A stretch of 57,294 nt of DNA from Burkholderiales bacterium (GTDB lineage Bacteria; Pseudomonadota; Gammaproteobacteria; Burkholderiales; Burkholderiaceae_C): the NCBI GenBank assembly GCA_039932275.1, contig JBDTQF010000001.1:1-57294 (forward strand), written 5' to 3'. Positions 4,494-52,368 of the stretch are shown in pieces. Below the pieces are notes generated by a model. That model was not told the DNA's origin and did not search any database. It worked only from the letters and a program-made list of their open reading frames with translations. Made by a program: the position numbers and the translations under genes. Position 1 is the stretch's first letter. Every line of letters begins with the position of its first letter.

Positions 4494-6013
4494 GTTTCAA
4501 GCGCAACCTCGTCGCGAACTACGTCAGCCAGATCTATGTGACGCTGGTCGGCATCGTGATGGTGCCGCTCTATGTGCGCTACATGGGCACCGAGGCCTAT
4601 GGATTGGTGGGCTTCTTCGCCATGCTGCAGGCCTGGTTCCAACTGCTGGACATGGGCCTCACGCCCACCACTGCCCGGGAGAGCGCGCGCTATCTGGGCG
4701 GTGCCACCACTGCGTTGGCGTTAAGGCAGCTGCTGCGAGCTCTGGAAGGCATTTTCATCGCCATCGCAGTAGTGGGGGGCGCCGGCATGGTGCTGCTGAC
4801 GCCGTGGATCGCAACGCATTGGCTGAACGTCGAGAAGTTGCCCAGGGCGGAGGTTTATCACGCCCTCGTGCTCATGGCCGTGACCATCGCCTTGCGGTGG
4901 GTCTGCGGCCTGTACCGCAGTCTGATCAACGGGTTTGAGCAGCAGGTCTGGCTGGGGCGGTTCAACATGCTGTTCGCCACTGCCCGCTTCGTGCTGGTGA
5001 TCCCGTTCTTCTGGCTCGTGGGTGCCGAGCCCAGCCAGTTCTTTGCTTACCAAGTGGGCGTGGCATTGTTGGAGGTGGTGTTGCTCGTCAGCAAGAGTTA
5101 CCGGGTGCTGCCGGGTGTGCCTGCTGGCGAGAAGCTGCGCCCCGAATGGCGGTCGCTTCGCGGCGTACTGCGGTTTTCGCTGAGCATTGCCTTCACCAGT
5201 TCTGTCTGGGTGTTCGTTACTCAAAGCGACAAGCTCGTGTTGTCAAAGCTGCTGTCGTTGAGCGACTACGCCTGCTTCACGCTGGCGGTGCTGGTGGCCA
5301 GCGGCGTGGCCATCGTCAGCGGCCCGCTTAGTGGCGTACTGCTGCCGCGGCTGAGTCGCCTGAGCGCTGCTGGCGACGAACAGGCGTTGATGACCCTGTA
5401 TCGCAACGCCACCCAAGGTGTTGCCCTCATCGCCTGGCCAATGGCATTGATGCTGGCCTGCTTTTCCGAACAAGTGCTATGGGCCTGGACTGGCAACGCC
5501 GAACTTGCTGCCCGCGCCGCCCCTGTTCTTGGCCTGTACGCACTGGGCAACGGAATCCTGGCAGTGAGCGCTTTTCCTTACTACTTGCAATTTGCCAAGG
5601 GCGACGTGAAGCTCCATTTGATTGGCAACGTGCTCTTTGTGTTGCTGCTTATTCCAGCGGTGATCGTGTGCACATGGCAATGGGGGATGACTGGCGCCGG
5701 GTGGGCCTGGCTGTGCGCCAACGCGCTGTACTTCGTATTCTGGGTGCCGCTGGTACACCAGCGCTTTGCCAGAGGGTTGCACTTTCGCTGGCTTGTTCGC
5801 GATGTTTTAGGAATCGTGGCGCCAGCAAGTCTTGGCGCTTTAGGTGCGATTTCAACTATCAGGTTTCCAGTGGAGCGCGCTCCACTCCTGATGGCGCTTA
5901 TTAGTGTTGGCGTAGGAATCCTCATTGTTGCGTGTCTCGGATCATCGGTTGCGCGAAATGGCGTGAAGGCGAAGTTTTCTCCACCAACCACAGTCCGTAA
6001 ACCGATAGGCTGA
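4490..6013 (+). CDS. wzx: Wzx-type oligosaccharide flippase
   Basis: Multi-TM protein with NLVANY, PLY...G.EAYGLVG, DMGL and DKLVLSKLL motifs. ATGA overlap with the upstream gene. Confidence 0.85.
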   Translation: MSFKRNLVANYVSQIYVTLVGIVMVPLYVRYMGTEAYGLVGFFAMLQAWFQLLDMGLTPTTARESARYLGGATTALALRQLLRALEGIFIAIAVVGGAGMVLLTPWIATHWLNVEKLPRAEVYHALVLMAVTIALRWVCGLYRSLINGFEQQVWLGRFNMLFATARFVLVIPFFWLVGAEPSQFFAYQVGVALLEVVLLVSKSYRVLPGVPAGEKLRPEWRSLRGVLRFSLSIAFTSSVWVFVTQSDKLVLSKLLSLSDYACFTLAVLVASGVAIVSGPLSGVLLPRLSRLSAAGDEQALMTLYRNATQGVALIAWPMALMLACFSEQVLWAWTGNAELAARAAPVLGLYALGNGILAVSAFPYYLQFAKGDVKLHLIGNVLFVLLLIPAVIVCTWQWGMTGAGWAWLCANALYFVFWVPLVHQRFARGLHFRWLVRDVLGIVAPASLGALGAISTIRFPVERAPLLMALISVGVGILIVACLGSSVARNGVKAKFSPPTTVRKPIG

Positions 6014-6034
6014 GCGGGTAAATAATAATGTTCT

Positions 6035-7243
6035 ATGGCGATTAAATTAAATATGTCGAAGAGGATTGCTTTCATAGGTTCTGCAAATGCCCTGGGCATG
6101 ATGTATGCGATAGAGTTGCGGGCCGCGGGGGTCGACGTTACCTATTTCGTGACGACGACCGAGGTAGATACATTATCTCGGCCAGAAAATCATTATCCAG
6201 AAGTTGGCGTTCCTTATGAGAAATGGGTCATAGAATATATAGTAAAGAATCCTCTTCGCGCCAACATATTTCCACACTTATATATAGGAGGTCTGGTTCG
6301 CGAGTTAAAGACATTTGATTTCGTTTTTCTGTCTGGCATGTATCTAATGCTCGCCCCGATTGTTTCTCCTGCAAAGGCAGTTTTTTTGTCGCATGGATCT
6401 GACTTGGATGTCTGGTGTGATAAGAAGAGTTATGGTCTATGGTTGCAGGAAATTCGGCGTGGATCTGCCATGGTTGGGTCGCTATTTTCACTGATTGGTG
6501 TCGCCAAGATGCGGAAGGCTTTCAAATCTTGCGCTGCATTGATAACCTTCCCGTTTGGACTAAGTTCAGATCGAGACCGGGTCGTCAGGGATATTTCGAG
6601 AAACTGGCGAGGCCGTCTCGTCGAGCGCTTTGATGTCTCATTTTCGCCGGTCTCCATGTCGGACAAGAAGCCACCTTTTCATGAGAATCGACTCGTGCTG
6701 CTATGTGCGGTTCGTTGCTCATTCCTGCCCTCTCCGGGCAGGTCGCCGAGTGACATGAAGGGTGTCGATGTAATTCTTAAGGGGGTCGAAAAATACATTG
6801 ATGAAAGACGACTGCCTGTTGTTCTTCATATAGTTGAAAAGGGTGTCGACTTAGAGCTGGCTAAAAAAATCGTGTCATCCGGCGCATTGAGGGAAAACGT
6901 TGTTTGGCACAAAGAAATGCCGTTTAATAAGCTCTTGACATTGTACGAAGAGGCAGACATCTGCTTTGATCAAACGTCAACGTCTTGGTTAGGGGCGATC
7001 GGAGTCTATGCGCTATATATGGGCCGGCCATTGATAGCGAATTCAAGGTCGGAAGTTCTTGGTCACATGTGGACTGGGAGCAATCCAATCTGTGAGGCTG
7101 TCAGTTCTGCTCAAGTTAGGGATTGTCTCGTGGCATTAGAGAGTGTTGAAGTTAGAAAAGAGGTTTCGGAGAGGTCAAAGGTTTTTGCTAAAACGAACCT
7201 TGGTCCTTCTCGAGTTGTGGGGGAAATACTTGATTTTATCTAG
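6035..7243 (+). CDS. Putative GT-B glycosyltransferase (divergent, low GC)
   Basis: HGSD, KGVDVIL and ADICFDQ...GAIGVYALYMGRPLI resemble a GT4 C-terminal motif. Located between wzx and the wzy-like gene. Confidence 0.7.
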   Translation: MAIKLNMSKRIAFIGSANALGMMYAIELRAAGVDVTYFVTTTEVDTLSRPENHYPEVGVPYEKWVIEYIVKNPLRANIFPHLYIGGLVRELKTFDFVFLSGMYLMLAPIVSPAKAVFLSHGSDLDVWCDKKSYGLWLQEIRRGSAMVGSLFSLIGVAKMRKAFKSCAALITFPFGLSSDRDRVVRDISRNWRGRLVERFDVSFSPVSMSDKKPPFHENRLVLLCAVRCSFLPSPGRSPSDMKGVDVILKGVEKYIDERRLPVVLHIVEKGVDLELAKKIVSSGALRENVVWHKEMPFNKLLTLYEEADICFDQTSTSWLGAIGVYALYMGRPLIANSRSEVLGHMWTGSNPICEAVSSAQVRDCLVALESVEVRKEVSERSKVFAKTNLGPSRVVGEILDFI

Positions 7244-8288
7244 CAGCACCGATGGAAAGATAACTTACGGACGAGCGGCCGTAATTTTTTCCATCGCTTG
7301 CGTTATTACATATTTGATTGCGTTCTTGATCGCGGCCAATCGGACGGATGTTCTCGACAACGAAAATTATTTAAACTACTTTTCGCACAATGATCTTCTG
7401 ACCGTCCTTTGGCAAAAAATTGTCAGTGAAGAGTCGATACTCAAGTCATTCTTAATGATATTCACTGAAGAAATTTTTTGGCTCGTCCTTGCCCATTTGG
7501 TGGGGGCTTTTCTTTCTCCGGCTGCGGCTACTGTAGCCGCAGTAATTTTCCTAAATGTTGCCATATTCCTTGGGATGTCTCGATTTAAGGGGTTTCCTAT
7601 TGGAGTTATTCTTTGGATTGCCCTGCCGATGTGTCTGTCGGTGGTTGGGTTTTTTCAAATCCGACAAGGGTTGGCTTTTTCTGTGTTCTGCTTGTTTTAT
7701 TTTCTCGGAGGTCCTGTTGTTCTTGGGGCGGTTATTGCGTCTGCAATTCACACCACTTTTCTTGTTCCCCTTGTGATTGTTCTAATGGCCAGAATATTTC
7801 GGGGAGAGAGGCGTCCACTATTATTTATATTTGCTTGTATCGTAGTATTTGGTGCGATCGCTTCTTTGGGTGGAATTCTATTCGCTGATTTTGCGGGTCG
7901 CCGCGCAGATATCTATGAGACAGATGAGGGTGTGTCCAGTTTTAACTATCTCGTTGGCGTTATCTTACTGGCTGCTCCGTCGCTATCGTTGGTTCTTTCC
8001 AACAAAGATAGGCCTGTTGGTCTATCTCAACTTGGTTGTCAACTATCAGTCGGAATTTCTATATGGCTAATTGTGTGCTTTTTTCTGTTTCCGATAGGGA
8101 CTTCGCGGGTCGGATACTACTCGGCAATGTTCTTCTTGTTCCCGTTAGTTATGGAAATTGATGAAATCTGGTCCCGACATAAGATGGCTCTCATTTTAAA
8201 TTTTGCTGCTGTTATTATTCTAATATACGGCGGAATAAAAAGTGGAACATATGATCAAATATTAATAGGATTTAGGGGAATATTATGA
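7230..8288 (+). CDS. EpsG/Wzy-like polysaccharide polymerase
   Basis: About 10 hydrophobic segments with D.ENY, QIRQGLA, IH and RVGYY motifs; low GC. TTG start at 7230 is inferred from overlap with the upstream stop. Confidence 0.75.
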   Translation: MILSSSTDGKITYGRAAVIFSIACVITYLIAFLIAANRTDVLDNENYLNYFSHNDLLTVLWQKIVSEESILKSFLMIFTEEIFWLVLAHLVGAFLSPAAATVAAVIFLNVAIFLGMSRFKGFPIGVILWIALPMCLSVVGFFQIRQGLAFSVFCLFYFLGGPVVLGAVIASAIHTTFLVPLVIVLMARIFRGERRPLLFIFACIVVFGAIASLGGILFADFAGRRADIYETDEGVSSFNYLVGVILLAAPSLSLVLSNKDRPVGLSQLGCQLSVGISIWLIVCFFLFPIGTSRVGYYSAMFFLFPLVMEIDEIWSRHKMALILNFAAVIILIYGGIKSGTYDQILIGFRGIL

Positions 8289-8406
8289 TGTTGCTTGAAT
8301 TTATGGCGCAATTTTGTTGCTAGATATTTTATCTATTTCTTCTCAAAAAGCACTTTGCATTCGATTAAATATGAAGTGTCATCGATTTCAGTGGCATGGG
8401 AAACCT

Positions 8407-10287
8407 ATGAGAAGCGAATCATATCGTCCCGACGTGGACGGGCTTCGCGCTGTTGCGGTACTTGCAGTCTTGATTCATCACATAAGCGCCGCGTTCCTTC
8501 CGGGTGGTTTTATCGGGGTGGACATCTTCTTCGTCATCTCGGGCTACTTGATCACATCCCAAGTGTTCAAGGAGTCGTTGGACGATAAGTTTTCTCTACG
8601 TGAGTTCTACAAGCGTCGCATTAACAGAATCATCCCTGCTCTGTTGCTCGTACTGATGGTGTCGCTGGTTGTCGGCTGCGTGCTGCTGTCTCCGGCCGAT
8701 CTTGTGCGCCTGACCAAAAGCGCGATCTATGCAATGGTGGGTATGTCCAATGTGTTTTTCTGGCGCGAGTACGGCAACTATTTTGCGGGTACGGCCAGTG
8801 AGGCGCCTCTTCTGCATACCTGGTCCCTGGGTGTAGAGGAACAGTTCTATCTTCTTTGGCCTTTGATCATCGTTCTGCTGGTCCGCTTCGCTCGGCGGTA
8901 CGTGGTGGTCATACTCGTCATCGCCACCATCGGCGCTGTCGCAGTGTCGGAAGTCGCGGTGGGCAAAGTGGCCTCGGCGTCGTATTACCTGCTGCCCGCG
9001 CGCTTCTTCGAGTTGATGATTGGTGGTGTATTGGCGCTGATGGCGCGCAACGGGAGGCGGCCCTCACCGATGTTGGCCACCGCGTGTGCCGCTGTCGGCT
9101 TGGCGCTCATCGGAGGGTCGTTGTGGTTGCTGGACAAGGCAGCGTCCTTTCCCGGCCTGAACGCCCTTTGGCCGTGTCTGGGGGCGGCCCTGCTGATTTG
9201 GGCAGGCGGTGCGCAGCATGGGCTCTCGCGCATCTTGACGAACCGCCCGATGGTCTCCATCGGCCTCATCTCTTATTCGCTGTACCTGTGGCATTGGCCG
9301 ATCATTGCGTACCTGAACTACACGCACGTTGCGATCAGCCCGCTGGTGGCTGTGCTTGTGGCAAGTGCCTCCATTGGGTTGGCATGGCTGTCCTGGAAGT
9401 TCGTTGAGGTGCCCCTGCGCAAGACGGGTGCTTCGCGCGCCGCCTCGGGCGTGGTGCTGTGGCGCTTCGCCCTGCCAGTGGCGGTGGTGGCGTCCATTGG
9501 GTTGGTTGCAGCGCGAGCGGAGGGCTTCCCAGGGCGTTTCGATGCGCGGGTCGCGGCCTATGAAAGAGTGTTGGAAGCCAAACCTGACCTGCTTCGCAAG
9601 GGTTGCCATGTGCCCACGGCCTTGTACGACACGCCCCCGAGTCCCGCCTGTCGCCTGGGTTCCGACAAACCGGTACTCGATGGCATCTTGATCGGGGACT
9701 CCTACGCCAATCATTTCACCGGGATGCTCGATGTCATGGCCAAGGCGCAAGGGCTCTCGCTGATGGACTACACCATGGACGGCTGTCCGCCGTTGCTGGG
9801 CTTTGACAATGGTGCGGCACCGTCTTATGCCGAGCGGTGTCGCAAGCGCAATGAGAGCGCTTTTGCGCAAGTAACGAACGGCCATTTCTCCCACGTCATA
9901 CTCGCGGCCAATTGGCCGCGGCAACCCGACGTAATGGACAAGCTGATGCGCTCGATCGAAACCGTGCTCAAGACCGGTGCTGAACTGACCATCGTGCTGG
10001 CCAACAACGGCATTGACCGGGCCAGCAGTTGCCCTGTTCGGAGCCTGATGTACCGGTCGAGGGACACCTGCGAGGGTGCAAAACTGGATGCGCCGTCCTA
10101 CTTCAATCAGATCCGGGCGCGCTACCCGATCGTCCATGTGGTGGACCCGAATCAAGTGATTTGTGCTGGCCAGGTGTGCAGCCCGCTCCTCGATGGCGTT
10201 CTGATTTATCGGGACGGCGGGCACCTGAATGACGTTGGGTCCCGGTTGCTTGGGCAGTCGTTGCTGCGGATCGGGGTGTCTCTGTAG
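8407..10287 (+). CDS. OafA/OatA-like O-acyltransferase (AT3 membrane domain + SGNH domain)
   Basis: YRPDVDGLRAVAV, GVDIFFVISGYLI, HTWSLGVEEQFY, SYSLYLWHWP, GDSYA and D.GHL motifs. Confidence 0.92.
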   Translation: MRSESYRPDVDGLRAVAVLAVLIHHISAAFLPGGFIGVDIFFVISGYLITSQVFKESLDDKFSLREFYKRRINRIIPALLLVLMVSLVVGCVLLSPADLVRLTKSAIYAMVGMSNVFFWREYGNYFAGTASEAPLLHTWSLGVEEQFYLLWPLIIVLLVRFARRYVVVILVIATIGAVAVSEVAVGKVASASYYLLPARFFELMIGGVLALMARNGRRPSPMLATACAAVGLALIGGSLWLLDKAASFPGLNALWPCLGAALLIWAGGAQHGLSRILTNRPMVSIGLISYSLYLWHWPIIAYLNYTHVAISPLVAVLVASASIGLAWLSWKFVEVPLRKTGASRAASGVVLWRFALPVAVVASIGLVAARAEGFPGRFDARVAAYERVLEAKPDLLRKGCHVPTALYDTPPSPACRLGSDKPVLDGILIGDSYANHFTGMLDVMAKAQGLSLMDYTMDGCPPLLGFDNGAAPSYAERCRKRNESAFAQVTNGHFSHVILAANWPRQPDVMDKLMRSIETVLKTGAELTIVLANNGIDRASSCPVRSLMYRSRDTCEGAKLDAPSYFNQIRARYPIVHVVDPNQVICAGQVCSPLLDGVLIYRDGGHLNDVGSRLLGQSLLRIGVSL

Positions 10288-19606: not shown

Positions 19607-19643
19607 CCTTGTAAATTGATCGGCTACCGATCAATTTACAAGG
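19607..19643. repeat. Perfect 17-bp inverted repeat CCTTGTAAATTGATCGG-cta-CCGATCAATTTACAAGG
   Basis: Read directly; overlaps the last codons and stop of the DegT gene. Confidence 0.95.
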
Positions 19644-20757
19644 CAAATCCCCGCGCCGCCCGCGCCACGTGTTCGAGCTGCGCCGCGCTGATCTCCGGAA
19701 ACATCGGCAGCGAAAGAATCCGTGACTGATGAGCGTGAGCCACCGGGAAGTCCTCCGGTCGATGTCCAAAGCGCTGGTACGCGGGCAAGAAGGGCAGCGC
19801 GACGGGGTAGTTGACGACGGTCTGCACGCCCTGCGCAGTCAGGTGCCGCGCCAGCGCGTCGCGCTGTTCGTGCTGCACCACGTAGAGATGCCAGACATGT
19901 TCGCGGCCATCGGCCACGCTGGACAGGGTCAGGCCCGGTATGCCGCGCAGTGCTTCTGCATAGGCCGTGGCCACCTGCTGGCGGCGCGCGGTCCAGGCCG
20001 GCAGGTGGCGCAGTTTGACGCTGAGGATGGCGGCCTGCAGCCCGTCGAGCCGGCTGTTGATGCCTTCGATCACATGCTCGCCCTTGGTCAGGCCACCGTG
20101 GCGGGCGAAGCGGGCCATGCGCTCGGCGAGTTGGCGGTCGGGCGTGACCACGGCGCCGGCGTCGCCCATCGCACCGAGGTTCTTGCCGGGGTAGAAGCTG
20201 AAGGAGGCAGCGTTGCCGAAGGTGCCCACCAGCCGGCCCTTGTAGCGCGCCAGGTGCGCTTGCGCGCAGTCTTCCAGCACCCAGAGCTTGTGCTTTGCGG
20301 CCAGCGCCATGATGGCGTCCATGTCGGCCGGTTGGCCGTACAGGTGCACGGGGATGATGCCCACCGTGCGCGGGGTGATGCGGGTGGCGATCTGCGCCGG
20401 GTCGATGGTGAAGGTGGCCGCGTCGGTGTCGCAGAACACCGGCGTGCCACCGGCCTGGGTGACGGTCTCGCTGGTGGAAATCCAGCTGTGTGCCGGCACC
20501 AGCACCTCGTCGCCGGGCTGCACGCCCAGCGCGTGCATCGCTATGTACAGGCTGTCGGTGCCGTTGGCGCAGCTCACGCAGTGAGCCACCCCCAGTGCGG
20601 CGGCGAATTCTTCTTCGAAGCGCAGCACCTGCGGCCCGCGCACGAAGGCGCTGGTGCGGATGACCTCGGCGATGGCCGCGTCGATCTCGTCCTTGATGCC
20701 GAGGTACTGGGCGTGCAGGTCGTTGAAGGGGACAGTGACGTGGGAGGTGGAAGCCAT
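19636..20757 (-). CDS. DegT/DnrJ/EryC1/StrS aminotransferase (WbpE/FdtB-like)
   Basis: VPFNDL, NGTDSL, PVHLYGQ, EDCAQAH, SFYPGKNLGAMGDAG, NSRLDGLQAA. Confidence 0.92.
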   Translation of the reverse strand: MASTSHVTVPFNDLHAQYLGIKDEIDAAIAEVIRTSAFVRGPQVLRFEEEFAAALGVAHCVSCANGTDSLYIAMHALGVQPGDEVLVPAHSWISTSETVTQAGGTPVFCDTDAATFTIDPAQIATRITPRTVGIIPVHLYGQPADMDAIMALAAKHKLWVLEDCAQAHLARYKGRLVGTFGNAASFSFYPGKNLGAMGDAGAVVTPDRQLAERMARFARHGGLTKGEHVIEGINSRLDGLQAAILSVKLRHLPAWTARRQQVATAYAEALRGIPGLTLSSVADGREHVWHLYVVQHEQRDALARHLTAQGVQTVVNYPVALPFLPAYQRFGHRPEDFPVAHAHQSRILSLPMFPEISAAQLEHVARAARGFAL

Positions 20758-20788
20758 GGCGTATTGTCGGAGCCCGGCAGCCGGATCG

Positions 20789-22027
20789 TCAGAGCACCCA
20801 GGCGGGCACGGCGGCGATGCCGGGCCGGGCCGCCAGCGCAAGCGGCTCCGGCACCATGCAGACCACCGCGCCCTCGCCCACCGGGGCGCCGGTGTGGGCC
20901 AGGGCCTGCATGCCCTTGAGCGCATCGGCGCCCGGGGTTGCCGACATCTTGCACTCGACGGGGTGCAGGTGTCCGTTCTGTTCGATGAGCAGGTCGATTT
21001 CGCGCTGATCCTTGTCGCGGTAGTAGTGGAACGGCGTGTGCCGACCGGCATGCGCATGGCTCTTGAGGATCTCGGTGATCACCCACGTCTCGAAGATCGG
21101 CCCCGACAACGCGCCGGCCTGCAGCGTTTGCGGGCTGCTCCACTGCGTGAGGTAGCTGCAAAGCCCGGTGTCCAGCAGGTAGAGCTTGGGAGTCTTGACC
21201 AGCCGCTTGGTGAGGTTGGTGTGCCAGGGTTGCAGCAGGTAGACGATGCCCGAGGCTTCGAGGATCGACAGCCAGTGCTTGGCCGTGTTGGGCGCAATGT
21301 CGGTGTCGCGCGCCAGGTCGGCAATGTTCAGCAACTGGGCCGTTCGTGCTGCCGCCGCACGCAGGAAGCGTACGAACGCGCTCTCGTCACCCACGCGCGC
21401 CAGGTCGCGCACGTCGCGCTGCAGGTACGTCTGCAGGTACGAGGCGTAGAACAGGTCCTTGTTCATCGCGGGTTGCGTTGCCAGGGCAGGGTAGCTGCCG
21501 CGCCAGATCTGCTGGTAAAGGCCTTCGAGATCGTTGCGCAGCCCGGTCGCGGCGTAGATGCGCAGGGTCTCGGCGGTGGGCACGAAGGGCCCGGCGGGGG
21601 GCAGCCCGAGCGCTTCTCGTCGCGACAGGGCCAACAGCGGCAACACCGCCACTCGCCCGGCCAATGACTCGGCCACGCCCTGCATCAGGTGAAAGGGCTG
21701 TGAGCCGGTAAGCCAGTACGCGCCCGGGGTGTGGGCGCTGTCCACGGCGATCTTGATGAGCGGCAGCAGTTGCGGGGCGTACTGGATCTCGTCGATCAGC
21801 ACGGGCGCCGGATGGCTCTGGATGAACAGCGCCGGGTCTTCGCGGGCCAGCCGCAGAACGAGCGGATCGTCGAGCGTGACGTAGCGGCGCCCGGCCTCGG
21901 CCGCGGCGCGCAGCAGCGTGGTTTTGCCCACCTGCCGGGCCCCGGTGACGAGCACCACTGGAAAAACTGCGCTGGCCTCGGCGATGTGCGGCGTGAGAAA
22001 CCGGGTGAGATTGTTGGGCGGAACCAA
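20789..22027 (-). CDS. AAA_14 ATPase with C-terminal DUF4143 / PD-(D/E)XK-like domain
   Basis: TGARQVGKTT Walker A, LIDEIQ Walker B, LTGS, ESLAGR, KRLVKTPKLYLLDTG, YYRD....EIDL...PVECK. TTG start is inferred. Confidence 0.9.
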   Translation of the reverse strand: MVPPNNLTRFLTPHIAEASAVFPVVLVTGARQVGKTTLLRAAAEAGRRYVTLDDPLVLRLAREDPALFIQSHPAPVLIDEIQYAPQLLPLIKIAVDSAHTPGAYWLTGSQPFHLMQGVAESLAGRVAVLPLLALSRREALGLPPAGPFVPTAETLRIYAATGLRNDLEGLYQQIWRGSYPALATQPAMNKDLFYASYLQTYLQRDVRDLARVGDESAFVRFLRAAAARTAQLLNIADLARDTDIAPNTAKHWLSILEASGIVYLLQPWHTNLTKRLVKTPKLYLLDTGLCSYLTQWSSPQTLQAGALSGPIFETWVITEILKSHAHAGRHTPFHYYRDKDQREIDLLIEQNGHLHPVECKMSATPGADALKGMQALAHTGAPVGEGAVVCMVPEPLALAARPGIAAVPAWVL

Positions 22028-22029
22028 GA

Positions 22030-22066
22030 TTCGTCCAAAATGCAGTGAGATTGCATTTTGGACGAA
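22030..22066. repeat. Perfect 15-bp inverted repeat TTCGTCCAAAATGCA-gtgagat-TGCATTTTGGACGAA
   Basis: Read directly; lies 2 bp upstream of the inferred start of the DUF4143 ATPase. Confidence 0.95.
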
Positions 22067-22101
22067 ATCGCTGCGACAGCCAAGGTGGCTGCCGCCGGGA
22101 T

Positions 22102-22584
22102 TCAATCGGGCAGCGTGCGCAGCAGCCGCGCCGGGTTGCCGGCGTAGATGCCGGGCCGGGTGATGTCGCGGGTCACCACGGCGCCGGCGCCGATGACCGC
22201 GCCATCGCAGATGCGCACCGGCAGGATGGTGGCGTTGGAGCCGATCGAGACGCGGTGGCCGATGGTGGTACTGCGCCACTGGGTGCGGTCGCCGCGGGCC
22301 GGGCCGCCGGTCTGGAACAGGTCGTTGACGAACATCACGCCGTGGCCGATGAAGCAGTCGTCGCCGATGCTGACGAGCTCGCAGATGAAGGCATGCGACT
22401 GCACCTTGGTGCGCGCCCCGATCACCACACCGCGCTGGATCTCGGTGAACGGCCCGACGAACACGCCGTCGCCCAGCCCGCATTCGTAGACGTTGGCCGG
22501 CTCGACGATGCGCACGCCCTCTCCGCACTGGACATCACGCACGCTGACTTGCAGCAGGCGGGCGGTGGTGGATTCGGCGGGCAT
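22102..22584 (-). CDS. Hexapeptide-repeat N-acetyltransferase (WbpD/FdtC-like)
   Basis: VGPFTEIQ, QSHAFICE, GHGVMFVND, IGSNATILP, IGAGAVVTRD, YAGNPAR. Confidence 0.88.
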   Translation of the reverse strand: MPAESTTARLLQVSVRDVQCGEGVRIVEPANVYECGLGDGVFVGPFTEIQRGVVIGARTKVQSHAFICELVSIGDDCFIGHGVMFVNDLFQTGGPARGDRTQWRSTTIGHRVSIGSNATILPVRICDGAVIGAGAVVTRDITRPGIYAGNPARLLRTLPD

Positions 22585-22681
22585 GGTGGGACGAGCTGAC
22601 GCGTGGTGTGCGGCAGTGTACGGGGGGTGCTCCGATGGCAAACGATGGCCGCCGAAGAAGGGCGGCGCGACAATTCACCGC

Positions 22682-23897: not shown

Positions 23898-24668
23898 ATG
23901 AGTTCACCCTCCGTCACGCCGGGGCTGGAAGAGAGCGTTGCCGCCGACGGGGCAGCGATGGCTGACGTGGCTTTCCGGCCGGTGGATCTCTGGGCCCTGC
24001 TGGAGCCCGAGGGCTCGGTGGCGGCAGGGCGCGCTGGCGGGGCCTTGTCGCAGGTCGGGCCGGCGCGGGGGCGTTTGCAACGGGCCCGGCTGGTGCGCGA
24101 TCCGCTGGATTTGGCGACCCATGTCGCGCGGGTGCTGCAGGAGTGCCATGCGGCGCTTGAAGGCGGCGATGCGGCGGCGCAGGAGGGCGCCCTGTTCGAC
24201 GCGCTGCTCGATGTATTCCTGGCGCTGGGGCCGAGCGGGCCCGAACTGCGCGCTGGGCTGCTGGCCCGCGCGCGCCCATGGTTGGCGCCGGATCACCATG
24301 CTTACCTCGCGCGCCATCTCGGTTCGGGGCTGGGGCCTTACACCGCCTTGCCGGCGGCCTCGCAGGCGGTGCTGGGCCGGGGGCTGATCGGCGCCATCGC
24401 CTTGGTGCGGCCGCCGCAGGCGCCGGTTCGCTCGGTCTCGGCCAGCCAGCTGCTGGAGCAGGCCATCGACCTGGTCGACCGGGGCGATGCCGAGGCGGCG
24501 CAGCTGTTGCTGGAGCAAGCGCTGCTGGCCGACCCGCACGACGGCGAGGTGGCCGACGAACTGCACCAGATGTACCGCCTCAACGGCGACGACGCGGCCC
24601 TGGCCGCCATGACCCAGCGGCTGCGCGCCCAAGGCCTGCCGGTACCGGCAGCCTGGCCGGCGGCTTGA
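23898..24668 (+). CDS. Hypothetical helical protein with a C-terminal TPR-like unit
   Basis: GC-biased coding pattern; A.DLVDRGDAEAA..LLEQALLADP TPR-like motif; first gene of a four-gene run. Confidence 0.65.
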   Translation: MSSPSVTPGLEESVAADGAAMADVAFRPVDLWALLEPEGSVAAGRAGGALSQVGPARGRLQRARLVRDPLDLATHVARVLQECHAALEGGDAAAQEGALFDALLDVFLALGPSGPELRAGLLARARPWLAPDHHAYLARHLGSGLGPYTALPAASQAVLGRGLIGAIALVRPPQAPVRSVSASQLLEQAIDLVDRGDAEAAQLLLEQALLADPHDGEVADELHQMYRLNGDDAALAAMTQRLRAQGLPVPAAWPAA

Positions 24669-24692
24669 GCAGCACAGCACAGAGCCCCGACG

Positions 24693-25325
24693 ATGGAAAC
24701 CTACACGCTCAACGGCCCGTACCACCTGCACCCCACGCCGGCGGGGGCGTTCTATGCGGTCACCCATACCGAACGCGATCTGCCCGCGCAGTTCCTGCAG
24801 CGCCTGCTGCGCGAGGCCGAGGCGCCGCTGATGAACACTGAGTTGCTGCAGGAGTGGACCCATCTGCAAGACGCTGCTGCGCTGGAGTTTCTGTTTCGCC
24901 TGCAGGAGGCCGGCCTGGTGCAGGGCCTGGCCGAGCCGTTGCGCGCGCCGGCCGCCGGGCTGGAGGCGGCACTGCCCGCGCTGCTCGGGCCGTTGTCGAG
25001 CGAGGGGCGGGCGCTGCTGGCCGACCCCAACGGCCTGTGCCTGGGTGGTGCGGGCTACGCTGAGGAACCCAGCGCCGAGCTGGCAGCCCTGGCGGCCGAC
25101 GTGGCCGCGCTGCAAGGGCGCCACGCCGCGTTGCTGAATCGGCACTTCCGCCTGGGTCAGCAGGGCTGGGGCATCGTCGCGGCCGGCGGCTACAGCGAAC
25201 TGGGCTTCTGGCCGCTGCACTTCGGCCCGGCCCATTTCATCCTGGTGGTGAGCGGCGAGCCACGCCTAAACCAACAGGCCTTCACGCAGCTGGCCTGGGC
25301 CCTGGGAGTGCACTATGCGCGCTGA
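24693..25325 (+). CDS. Hypothetical protein with a possible winged-HTH segment and C-terminal roadblock-like domain
   Basis: ALLADPNGLCL...AELAALAA resembles the roadblock beta-hairpin/helix. Overlaps the Roadblock gene by 11 bp. Confidence 0.6.
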   Translation: METYTLNGPYHLHPTPAGAFYAVTHTERDLPAQFLQRLLREAEAPLMNTELLQEWTHLQDAAALEFLFRLQEAGLVQGLAEPLRAPAAGLEAALPALLGPLSSEGRALLADPNGLCLGGAGYAEEPSAELAALAADVAALQGRHAALLNRHFRLGQQGWGIVAAGGYSELGFWPLHFGPAHFILVVSGEPRLNQQAFTQLAWALGVHYAR

Positions 25326-25677
25326 ACTGCTGAGCGCCATCCTGGAGGAGCTGAACGGCTCAAGCGCCGACATCGAAGCCTCGGCCGTGCTGTCCACCGA
25401 CGGCCTGGTGATGGCTGCGCAGTTGCCGCCAGCACTCGAAGAAGACCGCGTCGGCGCGATGAGTGCAGCGCTGGTCTCGCTGGGCGAACGCACCGCGCGC
25501 GAGCTGGCGCGCGGCGAGCTGGAGCAGGTGCTGGTCAAGGGACGCCTGGGCTACGTGCTGATGGCGCATGCCGGGCCTGAGGCAATCCTCACGGTGCTGT
25601 GTACGCCGACCGTGCGGCTGGGGCTGGTGCTGCTCGACCTCAGGCGCGCGGCCGACAGCATCGAGCGGGTGCTGTGA
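25315..25677 (+). CDS. Roadblock/LC7 (MglB-like) protein
   Basis: IEASAVLSTDGL, EDRVGAMSAA..SLG, LEQVLVKG..GY, LGLVLLD; 120 aa. Confidence 0.92.
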   Translation: MRAELLSAILEELNGSSADIEASAVLSTDGLVMAAQLPPALEEDRVGAMSAALVSLGERTARELARGELEQVLVKGRLGYVLMAHAGPEAILTVLCTPTVRLGLVLLDLRRAADSIERVL

Positions 25678-26750
25678 TGAGGTTGCGTGTGGGCGCCGGG
25701 GTGCTGCTGGTTTCAACCCTGGCTTGGCTGGCCATTCCCGCGCTGGCGCAGCCCGGCGGGCTGGTTCCTGCCCCGGTGGCATCGCCGGCAAGCAGCAGCG
25801 GCCTGCGCTCGCTGCGGGTGAGCGAGACGCAGGGCGCAGTGCGCATCACCGTGCCCGGCGATTCGCTCTGGGAGATTGCCGGCGCCGCCGTCGGCAGCAG
25901 CAATGTCGACCGCAACCAGGCCATGGTGGCCATCGTGCGGCGCAACCCGCAGGCGTTTCCCGAAGGCAACCTGAACCAGATCCAGCGTGGCCTCTCGCTG
26001 GTGATTCCGCCGCTGGCCGACATGCGTGCCGAAGACCTGTCGCGGGCCGTGGCGCTGGTGGCCCAGCACCGTCAGGCCCATGCCAACCGGGCCCTGGTGC
26101 CTGTGCCGTTGCATGCGCTGCCCGGCGCGGCCAGTGCACCGGGCTTGACCAGCCCGCCAGCGCCAGCATCTGCTTCGACCGAAGCGGCTGGCCCGGTCGC
26201 CGCGCCGGCATCCGCAGCCGAAGCCGGTGAGGCGACTGCCGCCCCGGCCCCGCCGGGTGTGCCCTGGCTGCCGTTGGGCGTGATTGCCGCCTTGGGCGTG
26301 GTGGCGGTGGGGCTGTTGCTGCGGCGTGGCCGTTCGAGCGAGGACGCGGCCGACCGCGCGGCCGACGCCGAACTGGCCTCGCGGGCCTTCGCCGATTCCC
26401 GCCTGCAACTGGCTTCCCAGCTCGAAGAGGAGCTGGAAAGCCGGCAACTTGCCGCGGCCGATGACGAACCCCTGTACGCGGCGCTGGACGACCCGATCGA
26501 GCTGGCCGATGCGGCGGTGCCGGCCCCGCCCGCGCTCCGTGCGGTGGGCCCGCTGGTCTGGCGGCCGGGGCAGGCCACTGTGCCGGTGACGCCCGCTGCC
26601 GCGGCCGCCGACGAGGCGCCGCCGCCGGCCAGCGGCGAGGCCCTGGCCCTGGCTTTGACGCTGGCGCACGCCTATGCCGACGTCGGCCGGCCCGACACCG
26701 CGCGCCGCTGGCTGCAGGCCATCGACGCCCGGGGCGCCGCGCCGCTCTGA
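25677..26750 (+). CDS. Compact FimV/HubP-like polar landmark protein
   Basis: Signal peptide; LysM/FimV core GDSLWEIA...QAMVAI.RRNPQAF..GNLN....G..L.IP; one TM; acidic linker; C-terminal L.LA.AY.DVG..DTAR..L. Confidence 0.8.
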   Translation: MRLRVGAGVLLVSTLAWLAIPALAQPGGLVPAPVASPASSSGLRSLRVSETQGAVRITVPGDSLWEIAGAAVGSSNVDRNQAMVAIVRRNPQAFPEGNLNQIQRGLSLVIPPLADMRAEDLSRAVALVAQHRQAHANRALVPVPLHALPGAASAPGLTSPPAPASASTEAAGPVAAPASAAEAGEATAAPAPPGVPWLPLGVIAALGVVAVGLLLRRGRSSEDAADRAADAELASRAFADSRLQLASQLEEELESRQLAAADDEPLYAALDDPIELADAAVPAPPALRAVGPLVWRPGQATVPVTPAAAAADEAPPPASGEALALALTLAHAYADVGRPDTARRWLQAIDARGAAPL

Positions 26751-26752
26751 GT

Positions 26753-26860
26753 CGGGGGCCGCGAGCAAAGCGAGCGTGGGGGCGTGCAGTGCCCGCCGGG
26801 CCGCCCCAAGGGCACTGCGCCCCCTCGGGGGGCAGCGAGCAAAGCGAGCGTGGGGGCGTG
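26753..26860. repeat. REP/MITE-like intergenic element: two exact 26-bp copies (26761-26786, 26835-26860) around GC hairpins
   Basis: GCGAGCAAAGCGAGCGTGGGGGCGTG occurs twice, with GCAGTGCCC/GGGCACTGC and GCCCCC-TCG-GGGGGC stems. Lies between convergent stops. Confidence 0.8.
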
Positions 26861-26862
26861 TT

Positions 26863-27615
26863 TCAGGCGGGAATGCGCATCCGCAGGCGGGCCAGCATGG
26901 CTTCGAGCCCATGCATCGGCACAGCCTCGAAGCCTTCTTCGCCCAGGTCGGCGCAGATGTGCTGGCCGGAGGCATGTTGGCGCAGGCCGTCGAAGGCGTC
27001 GATCAGCGCGGGCCGCATCGCCTTGAGGTCGGCGCTGACGCACAGGGCAGGAAAGGCCGCCCGGCTGTGGCTTTGCGCCACGAGGTAGAACGCATGGCGC
27101 GCGGCGGGCTTGAGTTGGTCCCAGTCGGACACCGCCAGCAGCGCCAGTTCGCAGGCGCCGTCAAGCAGCGCCGCCAGCGCCTGGCCGGCCGTGGCGTGGC
27201 TGTGCAGCACCCAGTCGTCTTCGCCCAGGCCTTGTTCGGCCAGCAGATCGAGCCCAAGTTCGGGCAGCAGCCAATGGTCTTCGCCACAGGCCACTGCGAC
27301 CGGGCGGCGGGCGCCCGAGGTCACGCCGCGGCGCGCGAGGATCAGCACTTCCTCGAACTTCTTCATCGGCCGCATGACCGGGATCCAGCCGGCCTCGGCC
27401 ACGCCGCGGGCCACGGTGTGGGCCTGGCCGTAGACGATCAGGCCTCGGTCCTGGGCCAGTGACGGCACTGGGTCGCCCGGCGGGGCGTGCTCGACGCGCA
27501 GCGCCAGGCCGAGCGTGCGTTGCAGGTACACGCTCAGCAGGTACCAGCCAGCCAGACGGTCGGCGCCGTCTTCGTGGGGCACCATCAGGCGCAGTCGGGG
27601 GCTCTTGTCAGTCAT
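26863..27615 (-). CDS. PhnD/phosphonate-binding-like protein without a signal peptide
   Basis: YLQRTLGL, GWIPVMRP, ALAALLDG..ELA and a C-terminal LG.EGFE pattern fit type 2 periplasmic-binding folds. No hydrophobic N-terminus. Confidence 0.65.
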   Translation of the reverse strand: MTDKSPRLRLMVPHEDGADRLAGWYLLSVYLQRTLGLALRVEHAPPGDPVPSLAQDRGLIVYGQAHTVARGVAEAGWIPVMRPMKKFEEVLILARRGVTSGARRPVAVACGEDHWLLPELGLDLLAEQGLGEDDWVLHSHATAGQALAALLDGACELALLAVSDWDQLKPAARHAFYLVAQSHSRAAFPALCVSADLKAMRPALIDAFDGLRQHASGQHICADLGEEGFEAVPMHGLEAMLARLRMRIPA

Positions 27616-27646
27616 CGTCGGGGTCGGTAGGGCGGCGCGGCGGGCG

Positions 27647-28447
27647 TCAGAGCAGGTGCCCGGGCGGGCAGTCCTGCGCCTCGGGCAGCGTGGCGGCAGC
27701 GCGGGCGGCCTGGGCCAGCAGGCGGTCTGCGGGCATGGGGCCGAGCACCCGGCACAGTGCCAGGTAGAAACGCAGCACCAACTCGGCCAGTTCCTCGCGG
27801 GTGGCGGGGATGCGCCAGGCGTGCGAGGTAGGCAGCTGCAGGTGCTGGTACCAGGCGGCACAGGCGGTTTCGCGCGTGACGGCCGAGATCTGAGCGCGCT
27901 GGAACTCGACCAGGCAGGCATCGCGCAGGGCCGCCAGGGAGGCGGCATGGGCGTCCTGAACCTGGCGGATCAGCGCCTGCACCAGGGCGTCGAACACCAC
28001 GTGTTCGGCCAGCACTGCGGTGGCATGTGGCTCTGCCATCGTGGCGAGCCACGGCGCGACGGGTGAGCGCATCGCCGCGGTGGCGAGCCACGGCGCGACG
28101 GGTGAGCGCATCGCCGCGGTGGCCGACCACAGGGCAGGATTCCACTGCGGCGCCCGGGGGGCGGAAGGCGCGTGGCCCGTCAACGGCCACGGGTCGGGTG
28201 GCAACTGCTCCCGCGGCCCGCGCAGCGTGGCGAACAAGCTGGCGTAGAGCCGTCGGCGTGAAGCGTCGTCCAGAGCGTGGCGCTGCGACAGGCTGTCGAC
28301 AAAAGCGATCACGTCCGACGCGGCATCGGAGTGCAACGTGTCCTGCACCAGTTCGAGCGCGCCCAGCGCCGCCTGCTGGCCCAGCAGGGGCAGCAGGGTG
28401 GCATAGGCGGCGCGGCGGTGGAGGGACTGGGTGGCGGCGCTGGTCAC
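27647..28447 (-). CDS. Hypothetical two-lobed helical protein
   Basis: Starts 1 bp after the amt stop; Ala/Leu-rich helical ends joined by a Pro-rich linker. Confidence 0.65.
   Translation of the reverse strand: MTSAATQSLHRRAAYATLLPLLGQQAALGALELVQDTLHSDAASDVIAFVDSLSQRHALDDASRRRLYASLFATLRGPREQLPPDPWPLTGHAPSAPRAPQWNPALWSATAAMRSPVAPWLATAAMRSPVAPWLATMAEPHATAVLAEHVVFDALVQALIRQVQDAHAASLAALRDACLVEFQRAQISAVTRETACAAWYQHLQLPTSHAWRIPATREELAELVLRFYLALCRVLGPMPADRLLAQAARAAATLPEAQDCPPGHLL
28041..28123. repeat. Exact 39-bp tandem duplication (ATAAMRSPVAPWL x2)
   Basis: GTGGCGAGCCACGGCGCGACGGGTGAGCGCATCGCCGCG at 28041 and 28080. Confidence 0.95.
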
Positions 28448-28448
28448 T

Positions 28449-29654
28449 TCAACGCTCCATCTTCAGCAGCACGGGCGAGTCCTGGCACTCGGCATACGCG
28501 AGCACGGCCAGCTCGCTGTAGTCCATGCCGCGCATTTCCTGCGTGGGCGAGGCGCGTACACCGGCGCCCATGCGTGCCAGCAAGGCGAAGCCGCCGTACG
28601 CCAATGGAAAGGTCCAGGCGAAGCAGGCCACAGCACCGAGCAGTTGGACGGTCAGGCGGGTGGGATTGAAAAGGTCGTCACTGAAGAACAACCCGGCGGC
28701 CAGCACACCCCACACGCAGCCCACTCCATGGATGGCGATGGCATCGACCGGATCGTCGATGCGGGCGTTGCGCAACCGCTGCGCGGCCCACAGGCACAAC
28801 GGCCCGGCGACCGCACCCGTGACCAATGCGGCCCAAGCCGATTGCGTGGCCGCCCCGGCGCTGCCGGCGACCAGGCCGCAGACGCTGCCCTTGATCAGCC
28901 GACGGGCCAGCGTCGGCGTGGAACCACGCGGCTGGCCCAGCGTCGCTGCCAGCCCGCCAGCGCAACCGGCCAGGCCAGTGTTCAGCAGCACCTGGGCGGC
29001 TTGCGCATCGGTTGACAAGCCGGCGTTCAGGCCCACCCAGCCGGCCCACACCAGCAGCGCGCCACCGCCCAGCAGCGGCCCGCTGTGGCCGGCGATCTCG
29101 CGCACTTCGCCGGCAGGCCCGTAGCGGCCCAGCCGCGGCCCGGCTGCCAGCACTGCCGCCAGTGCGCACCAGGCGCCGACGCCATGCACGCTGGCGGCAC
29201 CCGCGCCGTCGATGAAGCCGAGCTGCCTGAGCCAGCCCTGGGGATGGCCGCTCCAGTGGACAAAAGCCGGGTACACCACCAACGACAACAACACCGCCAG
29301 ACCCAGGTAGGCGACCAGACGTCCACGTTCTGCCATGGCACCCGAGGCCAGGTTCAGCGCGGTGGCAGCCACCAGCGCCTGGAACGGCAGCCCGGCCAGG
29401 CCGCCATCCGAGCCGGACAATCCAAAGCCGCTGCGGCCGATCCAGCCGCCGAGGCTGTCACCGTGCGCCAAGCCGCGGCCCATCAAGGTGTAGAGCAGGC
29501 CGGCGACGACGGTGCCCAGGGCCACCTTGGCGAAACCATGCAGGGCATTCTTGGCCCGGACGGTGCCACTTTCCGTGAACGCCAGCCCCGCCTGCAGCAC
29601 CAGCAGTAGTGCTGCGCAGGCAGCTGGCCAAGCAGGTGAAACGGAATCAATCAT
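28449..29654 (-). CDS. Ammonium transporter (Amt) family protein, divergent
   Basis: QAGLA..ESG.VR.KN, SGAMAER, D.AG...VH, GPRLGRY, DDPVDAIAIHG. Confidence 0.9.
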   Translation of the reverse strand: MIDSVSPAWPAACAALLLVLQAGLAFTESGTVRAKNALHGFAKVALGTVVAGLLYTLMGRGLAHGDSLGGWIGRSGFGLSGSDGGLAGLPFQALVAATALNLASGAMAERGRLVAYLGLAVLLSLVVYPAFVHWSGHPQGWLRQLGFIDGAGAASVHGVGAWCALAAVLAAGPRLGRYGPAGEVREIAGHSGPLLGGGALLVWAGWVGLNAGLSTDAQAAQVLLNTGLAGCAGGLAATLGQPRGSTPTLARRLIKGSVCGLVAGSAGAATQSAWAALVTGAVAGPLCLWAAQRLRNARIDDPVDAIAIHGVGCVWGVLAAGLFFSDDLFNPTRLTVQLLGAVACFAWTFPLAYGGFALLARMGAGVRASPTQEMRGMDYSELAVLAYAECQDSPVLLKMER

Positions 29655-31413: not shown

Positions 31414-31501
31414 GCCGGAGTGGCGAAATCGGTAGACGCAGTGGATTCAAAATCCACCGCCCTCAACAGGCGTGCCGGTTCGAGTCCGGCCTCCGGCACC
31501 A
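31414..31501 (+). tRNA. tRNA-Leu(CAA)
   Basis: Acceptor stem GCCGGAG/CTCCGGC, anticodon arm GTGGA-TT-CAA-AA-TCCAC, long variable arm, GTTCGAG T-loop, encoded CCA. Confidence 0.97.
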
Positions 31502-52276: not shown

Positions 52277-52368
52277 TGGCGGAAAGGGTGGGATTCGAAC
52301 CCACGTCAGGGGAGAACCCCTGAACCGGATTTCGAGTCCGGCGCATTCGACCACTCTGCCACCTTTCC
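52277..52368 (-). tRNA. tRNA-Ser(CGA)
   Basis: Minus strand reads GGAAAGG...CCGGA-CT-CGA-AA-TCCGG, long variable arm, GTTCGAATCC, CCTTTCC-GCCA. Confidence 0.97.

What the first reader, a model, noticed from the sequence alone, without database searches (positions are those of the whole stretch)
23898..29654. Candidate undescribed signalling/polarity system: two roadblock proteins, TPR-like protein and mini-FimV facing a degenerate Amt, a helical protein and a cytoplasmic PhnD-like protein, with no GTPase
Seen: two tightly coupled convergent gene runs (gaps or overlaps of 24, -11 and -1 bp; 1 and 31 bp). Established: Roadblock/MglB proteins regulate MglA-type small GTPases that set type IV pilus polarity in Myxococcus with TPR effectors, and FimV/HubP are peptidoglycan-binding polar landmarks. 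Inference: a membrane Amt-fold sensor and a cytoplasmic ligand-binding protein feed a roadblock module anchored at the pole by a dedicated FimV. I see no P-loop GTPase ORF in the cluster, so the partner acts in trans, was lost, or is not needed.
Basis: partly seen in the sequence, partly recalled or inferred. Interest (0 to 1): 0.85.

Follow-up and report, generated by a model that had tools for sequence, protein, structure and literature searches.

The report
GTPase-less remnant of MglA switch locus
These seven real genes are the fast-evolving leftovers of a catalogued but little-studied bacterial small-GTPase switch cluster that has lost its GTPase gene at this locus, plus a neighbouring ammonium-transporter gene pair whose usual ammonium-selecting residues are gone, and they likely survive as a switch-less protein scaffold rather than as a new sensing system.

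Summary
All seven genes and their spacings are real. The left run is not a new system. In 27 of 27 same-genus loci fetched, the same TPR and roadblock genes flank a receiver/winged-helix gene and an MglA GTPase, with bactofilin upstream; 25 of 27 also show PAS, PhnD-like and FimV-like genes. This is the Group 3 MglA system catalogued in 2014. Here the GTPase, receiver, PAS, cluster PhnD and bactofilin genes are missing from the locus. No MglA was found elsewhere, but the genome is 85% complete.

Amt plus the helical gene is a separate operon. It occurs in 14 of 14 class-level carriers and does not track MglA (3 of 14).

The survivors evolve far faster than neighbouring control genes yet stay intact and under purifying selection. 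The Amt lost its Trp/Ser filter and Phe gate. The PhnD-like protein lost family motifs. Roadblock B lost a helix motif that is also absent in all 8 other loci without an adjacent GTPase that I checked.

Best reading: a remodelled GTPase-less remnant, likely a scaffold. A single sensor-to-pole pathway is not supported.

The parts
23898..24668 (+). A: TPR-like protein, first gene of the Group 3 MglA locus core
   Evidence: Orthologue upstream of receiver-MglA in 27 of 27 genus loci and in Thiothrix. TPR-like by Atlas features, a lead only. End branch 1.25 vs tree median 0.32.
24669..24692 (.). 24-bp gap where relatives carry the receiver/winged-helix gene and the MglA GTPase gene
   Evidence: Junction bridged by a Logan contig of run X3 spanning 24396-24744.
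24693..25325 (+). B: N-terminal domain plus C-terminal roadblock (MglB-like) domain; has lost the conserved helix-alpha2 motif (H124, E128 and neighbours)
   Evidence: Model and fold searches. Motif counts.
25315..25677 (+). C: Roadblock/LC7 (MglB-like) protein. In relatives the PAS and PhnD-1 genes follow it; here D follows directly
   Evidence: PF03259 E 3.6e-17. 71% identical to genus orthologues, which are 94% identical among themselves. C-D junction bridged in runs X1 and X3.
25677..26750 (+). D: short FimV-like membrane protein (signal-like N-terminus, FimV core, one hydrophobic helix near residues 195-215, weak FimV C-terminal TPR); a second copy besides the canonical FimV on contig C119
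   Evidence: TIGR03505 60.1 bits vs cut-off 43.45; TIGR03504 15.9 vs 30.65. Hydropathy. Canonical FimV-like gene.
26754..26860 (.). REP-like palindromic repeat between the convergent runs
   Evidence: 33-nt direct repeats around a 22-nt-arm hairpin. 70 blastn hits on 56 contigs of the genome.
26863..27615 (-). E: cytoplasmic PhnD-like protein, a divergent relative of the second PhnD-like paralogue (PhnD-2), not of the cluster's PhnD-1; placed behind Amt-F in this lineage
   Evidence: Tree. Genus PhnD-2 lies elsewhere in the genome. 41 PhnD-2-conserved positions differ in both E and its orthologue P0039.
27647..28447 (-). F: unnamed two-domain helical protein with a disordered linker; conserved downstream partner gene of this Amt type. 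Carries an in-frame perfect 39-nt tandem duplication at 28041-28118
   Evidence: Model. No clear fold match. 681 relatives among 50%-identity representatives. Directly behind Amt in 14 of 14 class genomes. Repeat.
28449..29654 (-). G: degenerate Amt-fold membrane protein; twin His kept, Trp/Ser filter and Phe gate lost
   Evidence: V95, G136, L209 and L213 stand where Sd-Amt1 has F98, W139, F221 and S225. 24 of 24 genus orthologues keep F, W, F, S. End branch 1.55 inside the genus clade vs 0-0.21 for genus orthologues.

Best explanation
The left run is what remains of a Group 3 MglA small-GTPase locus after the GTPase, receiver, PAS, PhnD-1 and bactofilin genes left it; the right run is a separate Amt-partner operon with an added PhnD-like gene; and the survivors likely now act as a GTP-independent scaffold rather than a switch or sensor. 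Shown: gene content, synteny, locus-specific acceleration, continued purifying selection in B, E and F, and loss of the ammonium filter. Inferred for relatives: B and C would form the roadblock dimer that binds MglA through helix alpha2, the FimV-like D would tether the module to the cell wall, probably at a pole, and PAS and PhnD-1 would supply inputs. Inferred here: without MglA the GTPase-facing patch of B decayed while the fold cores were kept, so D, A and a B/C dimer would still assemble as a static complex. The Amt-fold G would serve as a membrane anchor for F (and perhaps E) without selective ammonium binding. No functional link between the two runs is shown.
For: Full locus in 27 of 27 genus loci (GTPase, receiver, bactofilin) and 25 of 27 (PAS, PhnD-1, D); the 2 misses end at contig ends. 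Same order in Thiothrix. The Group 3 definition is DUF>MglA>MglB>MglB (PMC4316618 section 18 and supplement rows). The window sits at the ancestral position beside cysM (20 of 27), and C and G nest in the genus clade, so this is vertical descent with loss. Identity window-vs-genus against genus-vs-genus: C 71/94, G 48/78, B 54/81, A 36/55, F 37/54, D 33/44; controls CysM 87/88, rhomboid 77/82, GyrB pieces 88/91 and 84/85, DnaN 82/85. dN is raised 1.3- to 6-fold in the six cluster genes tested and about equal in two controls. Purifying selection persists: window vs sister protein is identical at 54 of 61 conserved vs 89 of 149 other sites in B (p 3e-5), 46/56 vs 72/194 in F, 53/69 vs 96/181 in E. 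Neutral drift would leave five genes stop-free with probability 5e-5 to 0.024. B keeps both H124 and E129 in 27 of 27 genus, 20 of 26 class and 9 of 11 other GTPase-adjacent loci, but in 0 of 9 loci without an adjacent GTPase (about four lineages, window included). MglB binds MglA through alpha2 (PMC3199381 passages). Amt-F is independent of MglA: 3 of 14 vs 56 of 385, p 0.45.
Against: The genome is 85% complete and lacks rpoB, so an MglA elsewhere is not excluded. No binding, expression or localisation was tested. Both runs accelerated together, which a purely accidental neighbourhood does not predict. G019 (99% complete) lacks B, MglA, PhnD-like genes, this Amt and both F paralogues together, which hints at a link inside the genus. 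It also shows that the whole set is dispensable. The E purifying test was not significant against a second orthologue, P0038 (p 0.11). Several no-GTPase loci come from genomes that hold a Group 3-like GTPase elsewhere. The motif window was chosen after seeing the data, and those proteins are more diverged overall. dS is also somewhat raised for C and G.
Confidence: 0.55

Rival explanations
1. Slow decay: after the GTPase was lost the remaining genes have no real job and are drifting towards loss, held intact only by weak selection against broken proteins.
For: All cluster proteins tested shift away from AT-rich-codon residues (FYMINK 0.09 vs 0.20 in C, 0.11 vs 0.22 in G). dN/dS is raised. Functional-site residues are lost in G, E and B. 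G019 lacks the whole set.
Against: Seven intact frames with tight spacing. Significant excess conservation at family-conserved sites between lineage members that are 46-68% identical. Stop-free survival is unlikely under neutrality. Orthologues of B, E and F each list a longest contig of 109,485 bases, which suggests the arrangement is old and shared; that contig could not be read.
Confidence: 0.2
2. The GTPase acts in trans: mglA and the receiver gene moved, or an intact second locus exists, in the unassembled 15% of the genome.
For: 85.3% completeness, 373 contigs, rpoB missing. Orphan mglA and mglB genes are common and can be functional (PMC4316618 and PMC11112851 passages).
Against: No hit for MglA, receiver, stand-alone PAS or PhnD-1 profiles. 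B has lost the motif that tracks an adjacent GTPase, as have P0001-P0004 (0 of 4). A working GTPase partner would not explain the acceleration.
Confidence: 0.12
3. One reading: one integrated new system in which the Amt-fold protein and the PhnD-like protein sense new ligands and signal through F to a roadblock module at the pole, with no GTPase.
For: Both runs accelerated in the same lineage. E was placed into the Amt-F run. In relatives PhnD-2-type genes can sit directly beside mglB (L047, L054-L056, L080, L286). Sensor-type Amts are the closest solved relatives.
Against: Amt-F does not co-occur with MglA across the class, and it lies away from the locus in G015 and G016. The ammonium filter and gate are lost. 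No output domain exists in the cluster. The runs are convergent, not one operon.
Confidence: 0.13

Closest known systems
Group 3 MglA systems of beta/gamma-proteobacteria (Wuichet and Sogaard-Andersen, PMC4316618; section 18, passages and supplement rows seen)
   Same: Two MglB-like roadblock genes in tandem. Relatives of this locus have exactly DUF(receiver-wHTH)>MglA>MglB>MglB.
   Different: MglA and the receiver-wHTH gene are absent here. The TPR-like, FimV-like, PAS, PhnD-like and bactofilin neighbours are not part of the definition in the section I read.
Snodgrassella mgl locus (PMC11112851, passages seen)
   Same: A Group 3 system with multiple mglB genes; an mglB allele changes type IV pilus-dependent colony motility and gut colonisation.
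   Different: It has mglA. The tested gene was an orphan mglB. The window's genome has PilT-family genes, but so does G019, which lacks the locus.
Myxococcus/Thermus MglA-MglB (PMC3199381, passages seen)
   Same: Roadblock fold. [quoted passage not shown]
   Different: A Group 1 system with demonstrated GAP activity and polarity role. Here there is no GTPase, and B has an extra N-terminal domain.
Sensor Amts Sd-Amt1 (PDB 8QJ3) and the chain of PDB 6EU6 (recalled as Ks-Amt5); PMC11152129, passages seen
   Same: Closest solved sequences to G (E 1.8e-58 and 3.2e-51). Twin His kept.
   Different: G has no fused transducer domain, lacks the Trp/Ser pair and Phe gate, and is followed by the unnamed gene F, not glnK.
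FimV/HubP polar landmarks (role recalled; family model TIGR03505)
   Same: FimV core, hydrophobic helix, weak C-terminal TPR.
   Different: 357 aa. It is a second copy beside a canonical FimV-like gene on C119. Localisation is untested.

Membership tests
Group 3 MglA system | MglA small GTPase gene | tested here: not met
   Absent from the locus; no hit in the held genome with PF03029 or Group 3 profiles. The genome is 85% complete.
Group 3 MglA system | Conserved receiver-like/winged-helix-like protein upstream of MglA | tested here: not met
   Absent from the locus; best genome hit E 0.028. Present in 27 of 27 genus loci.
Group 3 MglA system | One or two MglB/roadblock homologues | tested here: met
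   C by Pfam, B by fold; both orthologous to the genes beside MglA in relatives.
MglB-type GTPase-activating proteins | Binds MglA via helix alpha2 and stimulates GTP hydrolysis | not testable with these tools
   Indirect only: B lost the alpha2-start motif that tracks an adjacent GTPase; C keeps most of alpha2.
Amt ammonium transporters | Twin-His pair | tested here: met
   H157 and H309 align to Sd-Amt1 H169 and H323.
Amt ammonium transporters | Trp/Ser selectivity pair and Phe gate | tested here: not met
   G136, L213, V95, L209 vs W, S, F, F in 24 of 24 genus orthologues. TIGR00836 262.6 bits, below cut-off 343.3.
Sensor Amts (Sd-Amt1 type) | Fused cytoplasmic transducer domain | tested here: not met
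   401 aa, Amt domain only.
FimV/HubP | FimV core domain and membrane anchor | tested here: met
   TIGR03505 over cut-off; hydrophobic helix near residue 197.
FimV/HubP | LysM peptidoglycan binding and C-terminal FimV TPR | tested here: inconclusive
   No Pfam LysM hit; TIGR03504 below cut-off.
FimV/HubP | Polar localisation | not testable with these tools
   Needs microscopy.
PhnD phosphonate ABC binding proteins | Exported protein beside ABC permease and ATPase genes | tested here: not met
   No hydrophobic N-terminus; neighbours are D and F; Pfam score just under cut-off.

The most novel reading that the evidence does not exclude
In this lineage a Ras-like switch module was rebuilt without its GTPase. 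A FimV-anchored roadblock/TPR scaffold was joined to a pseudo-Amt membrane receptor, its helical partner F and a re-pocketed PhnD-like protein, giving a GTP-independent sensing complex for a ligand other than ammonium. The concerted acceleration of both runs under continued purifying selection would be the footprint of that rewiring.
Probability: 0.13. Interest if true: 0.72.

Novelty: new variant of a known kind. Interest (0 to 1): 0.4.

Why it matters
Group 3 MglA systems are widespread (59 of 400 other class genomes sampled). My searches found only a comparative survey and one Snodgrassella genetic study on them. Natural GTPase-less versions act as evolutionary knock-outs. The B motif H124-E125-x-x-E128-E129, lost repeatedly where MglA is not adjacent, predicts the MglA-binding surface and can be tested directly in an intact relative. 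The Amt-F operon is a second testable lead: an Amt type with a conserved C-terminal GYPEF-type tail and an unnamed partner in place of GlnK. Searches found no description of it. The window's own copy is a derived, degenerate example and a poor model for either system.

Tried and rejected
Misassembly: rejected for A-B, B-C, C-D, E-F and F-G (bridging contigs, one study only). D-E is unbridged, but D faces F in 24 of 27 genus loci.

Expression: no RNA holder was listed, so this says nothing either way.

Complex prediction for Amt plus F: the queue was full and no job ran, so binding is untested.

F fold: no Foldseek match at E<=0.001 and best VIA Z 6.9. This is uninformative and does not show a new fold.

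Profile comparison of B with C: no signal (prob 0.2). B's roadblock identity rests on the model.

'F is always beside Amt': false within the genus. A second F paralogue lies beside an MFS-like transporter gene, with no Amt hit within about 6 kb, in 6 of 6 loci fetched.

Rows dropped: G795 (E 5.5e-4) before the 14-of-14 count; G736 was not scored. I fetched 27 of the 31 B-positive genus genomes. Three more show MglA beside B by coordinates. G026 was not checked.

The rhomboid control (and its query) was translated from the wrong strand. I discard that row and use.

Genome-wide fast evolution: rejected. The GyrB/DnaN end branch is 0.14, like G015 (0.13) and G030 (0.11).

Promoter scan: 0 sigma-70-like sites.

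The metagenome scan (16 loci) gave no close relative with the reduced arrangement. L101 alone lacked the GTPase between receiver and B and was not followed up.

Supplement file 1 of PMC4316618 was not searchable. It may bear on which neighbours were already noted.
Full report
Observation. C is a Roadblock/LC7 protein, G is Amt-family, D has a FimV core and E has a weak phosphonate-binding-protein match. B had no family hit over cut-off, but its model matches MglB and other roadblocks over residues 86-210. No MglA-type GTPase was found in the held genome with PF03029, the Thiothrix protein or Group 3 profiles. The genome is 85.3% complete and lacks rpoB, so absence is firm for the locus and only probable for the organism. 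Short Logan contigs from one study bridge the junctions that matter, A-B and C-D.

What the left run is. B led to Thiothrix loci with the order TPR-like, receiver-like, MglA, B, C, PAS, PhnD-like, FimV-like. B is present in 31 of 32 other genomes of the genus. In the 27 loci fetched, bactofilin, A, receiver, MglA and B are present in 27, C in 26, and PAS, PhnD-1 and D in 25, the misses being at contig ends. F and the Amt face them in 24. Wuichet and Sogaard-Andersen (PMC4316618; I read section 18, passages and supplement rows) define Group 3 MglA systems as a receiver/winged-helix protein, MglA and one or two MglB. A Snodgrassella study (PMC11112851, passages) ties an orphan Group 3 mglB to pilus-dependent motility. 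The window is this locus at its ancestral position beside cysM, without MglA, receiver, PAS, PhnD-1 and bactofilin. C and G nest inside the genus clade, and B's clade is sister to it on a long stem, so loss is simpler than transfer.

What the right run is. F is an unnamed two-domain helical family. In a sample of 400 class genomes, 14 had a clear F hit, and in all 14 F lies directly behind an Amt of this type. Two more cases came from the order. Only 3 of the 14 have a Group 3 MglA, against 56 of 385 others (p 0.45). Two genus members carry Amt-F away from the mgl locus. These Amts share a C-terminal tail beyond the end of the genome's own AmtB, and their closest solved relatives are sensor-type Amts (PMC11152129 passages). 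So Amt-F is a separate operon that abuts the mgl locus in most of this genus. E is not the cluster's PhnD-1. It groups, on a long branch, with a second paralogue that lies elsewhere in most relatives and has been placed behind F. Orthologues of B, E and F each list a longest contig of 109,485 bases. I infer that another genome shares the arrangement, but I could not read it.

State of the survivors. Every cluster gene tested is far more diverged from its genus orthologues than they are from each other (for example C 71% vs 94%, G 48% vs 78%). CysM, rhomboid, GyrB and DnaN are not. G has lost the Trp/Ser pair and both gate phenylalanines that 24 of 24 genus orthologues keep, while retaining the twin His. 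E differs from the PhnD-2 consensus at 41 conserved positions shared with its orthologue. Yet the genes are not pseudogenes. All frames are open, a neutral simulation gives 5e-5 to 0.024 for five genes staying stop-free, and family-conserved sites remain preferentially conserved within the lineage for B, F and, in one of two comparisons, E.

A test of the loss. MglB binds MglA with helix alpha2 (PMC3199381 passages). In the fast clade, 8 of 12 conserved positions around the start of B's alpha2 changed, against 10 of 49 elsewhere (p 0.003, window chosen after the fact). I then looked for other B genes without an adjacent GTPase and found 8 loci in about three further lineages, including G687 (98% complete, no Group 3 MglA). 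H124 and E129 are both kept in 27 of 27 genus, 20 of 26 class and 9 of 11 other GTPase-adjacent loci, and in 0 of 9 without. Fold-core residues are kept in those 9. Several of those genomes hold a related GTPase elsewhere, and the proteins are more diverged overall, so this is support, not proof.

Mechanism. Shown: descent from a Group 3 locus, loss of the switch and input genes from the locus, relaxed but continuing selection, and loss of ammonium-selecting residues. Inferred: in relatives B/C is the MglA regulator tethered by D. Here the remainder most likely persists as a nucleotide-independent scaffold, with G as a membrane anchor for F. I put this at 0.55, decay at 0.2, an integrated new sensor system at 0.13 and a hidden GTPase at 0.12. 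The points favouring a link between the runs are their joint acceleration and their joint absence, with the second F paralogue, from G019. No binding, expression or localisation was tested.

Novelty. This is a new variant of a known kind. Earlier notes of this scan already file the intact locus as Group 3 MglA, report another GTPase-less version and describe the Amt-F pair. They are leads, not support. Literature searches showed no description of a GTPase-less Group 3 locus or of Amt-F; beyond the four papers named I saw only listings. Interest 0.4: the locus itself is a derived remnant, and its value is the predicted MglA-binding patch and the pointer to the Amt-F operon.

Noticed in passing
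L286 (G687:C67:29000-44000), 4823-10118: Group 3 locus A-receiver-B-PhnD2-C-PAS-PhnD1 with no GTPase, in a 98% complete genome with no Group 3 MglA hit; a cleaner natural knock-out that keeps the input genes.
   Followed up: partly
L287, L288 (A-B only) and L290-L293 (receiver, divergent C, A and B): A distinct clade of B proteins (100% support) in loci without an adjacent GTPase, all lacking the alpha2 motif; possibly a second sub-type of the system.
   Followed up: partly
L237-L250, L255, L150, L151: Amt-F two-gene operon across the class. The Amts share a C-terminal H-x-E-x-G-Y-P-E-F-type tail, and four of them (three genomes plus none in the genus) vary at gate or filter positions: L238, L240 and L243 have I for F98 and M for S225 in Sd-Amt1 numbering.
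   Followed up: partly
L144-L149: Second F paralogue in most genus genomes, directly upstream of an MFS-like transporter gene in the four loci whose neighbours I listed (function judged from the sequence start, not scanned); absent from G000 and G019.
   Followed up: partly
L034-L053, L061-L067; L002 4333-4686: A bactofilin gene lies directly upstream of the Group 3 locus in 27 of 27 genus loci and near it, on the other strand, in Thiothrix.
   Followed up: partly
L047 (G020) 7239-8862; L088 (G027): Duplicated C with a PhnD-2 gene inserted between the two copies.
   Followed up: no
L035 (G018) 6395-8179: PhnD-1 gene split into two pieces about 1 kb apart, suggesting an insertion.
   Followed up: no
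window 28041-28118: Perfect in-frame 39-nt tandem duplication in the linker of F.
   Followed up: no
window 26754-26860: REP-like repeat family, 70 hits on 56 contigs, with very high summed depth in rhizosphere metagenome contigs.
   Followed up: partly
window 6001-9000 and 19636-22641: A low-GC stretch (45-48%), and nearby sugar aminotransferase-like and acetyltransferase-like genes separated by a P-loop ATPase ORF (20789-22528); looks like a polysaccharide cluster, judged from translations only.
   Followed up: no
window 31414-31501 and 52277-52368: tRNA-Leu(CAA) and tRNA-Ser(CGA).
   Followed up: no
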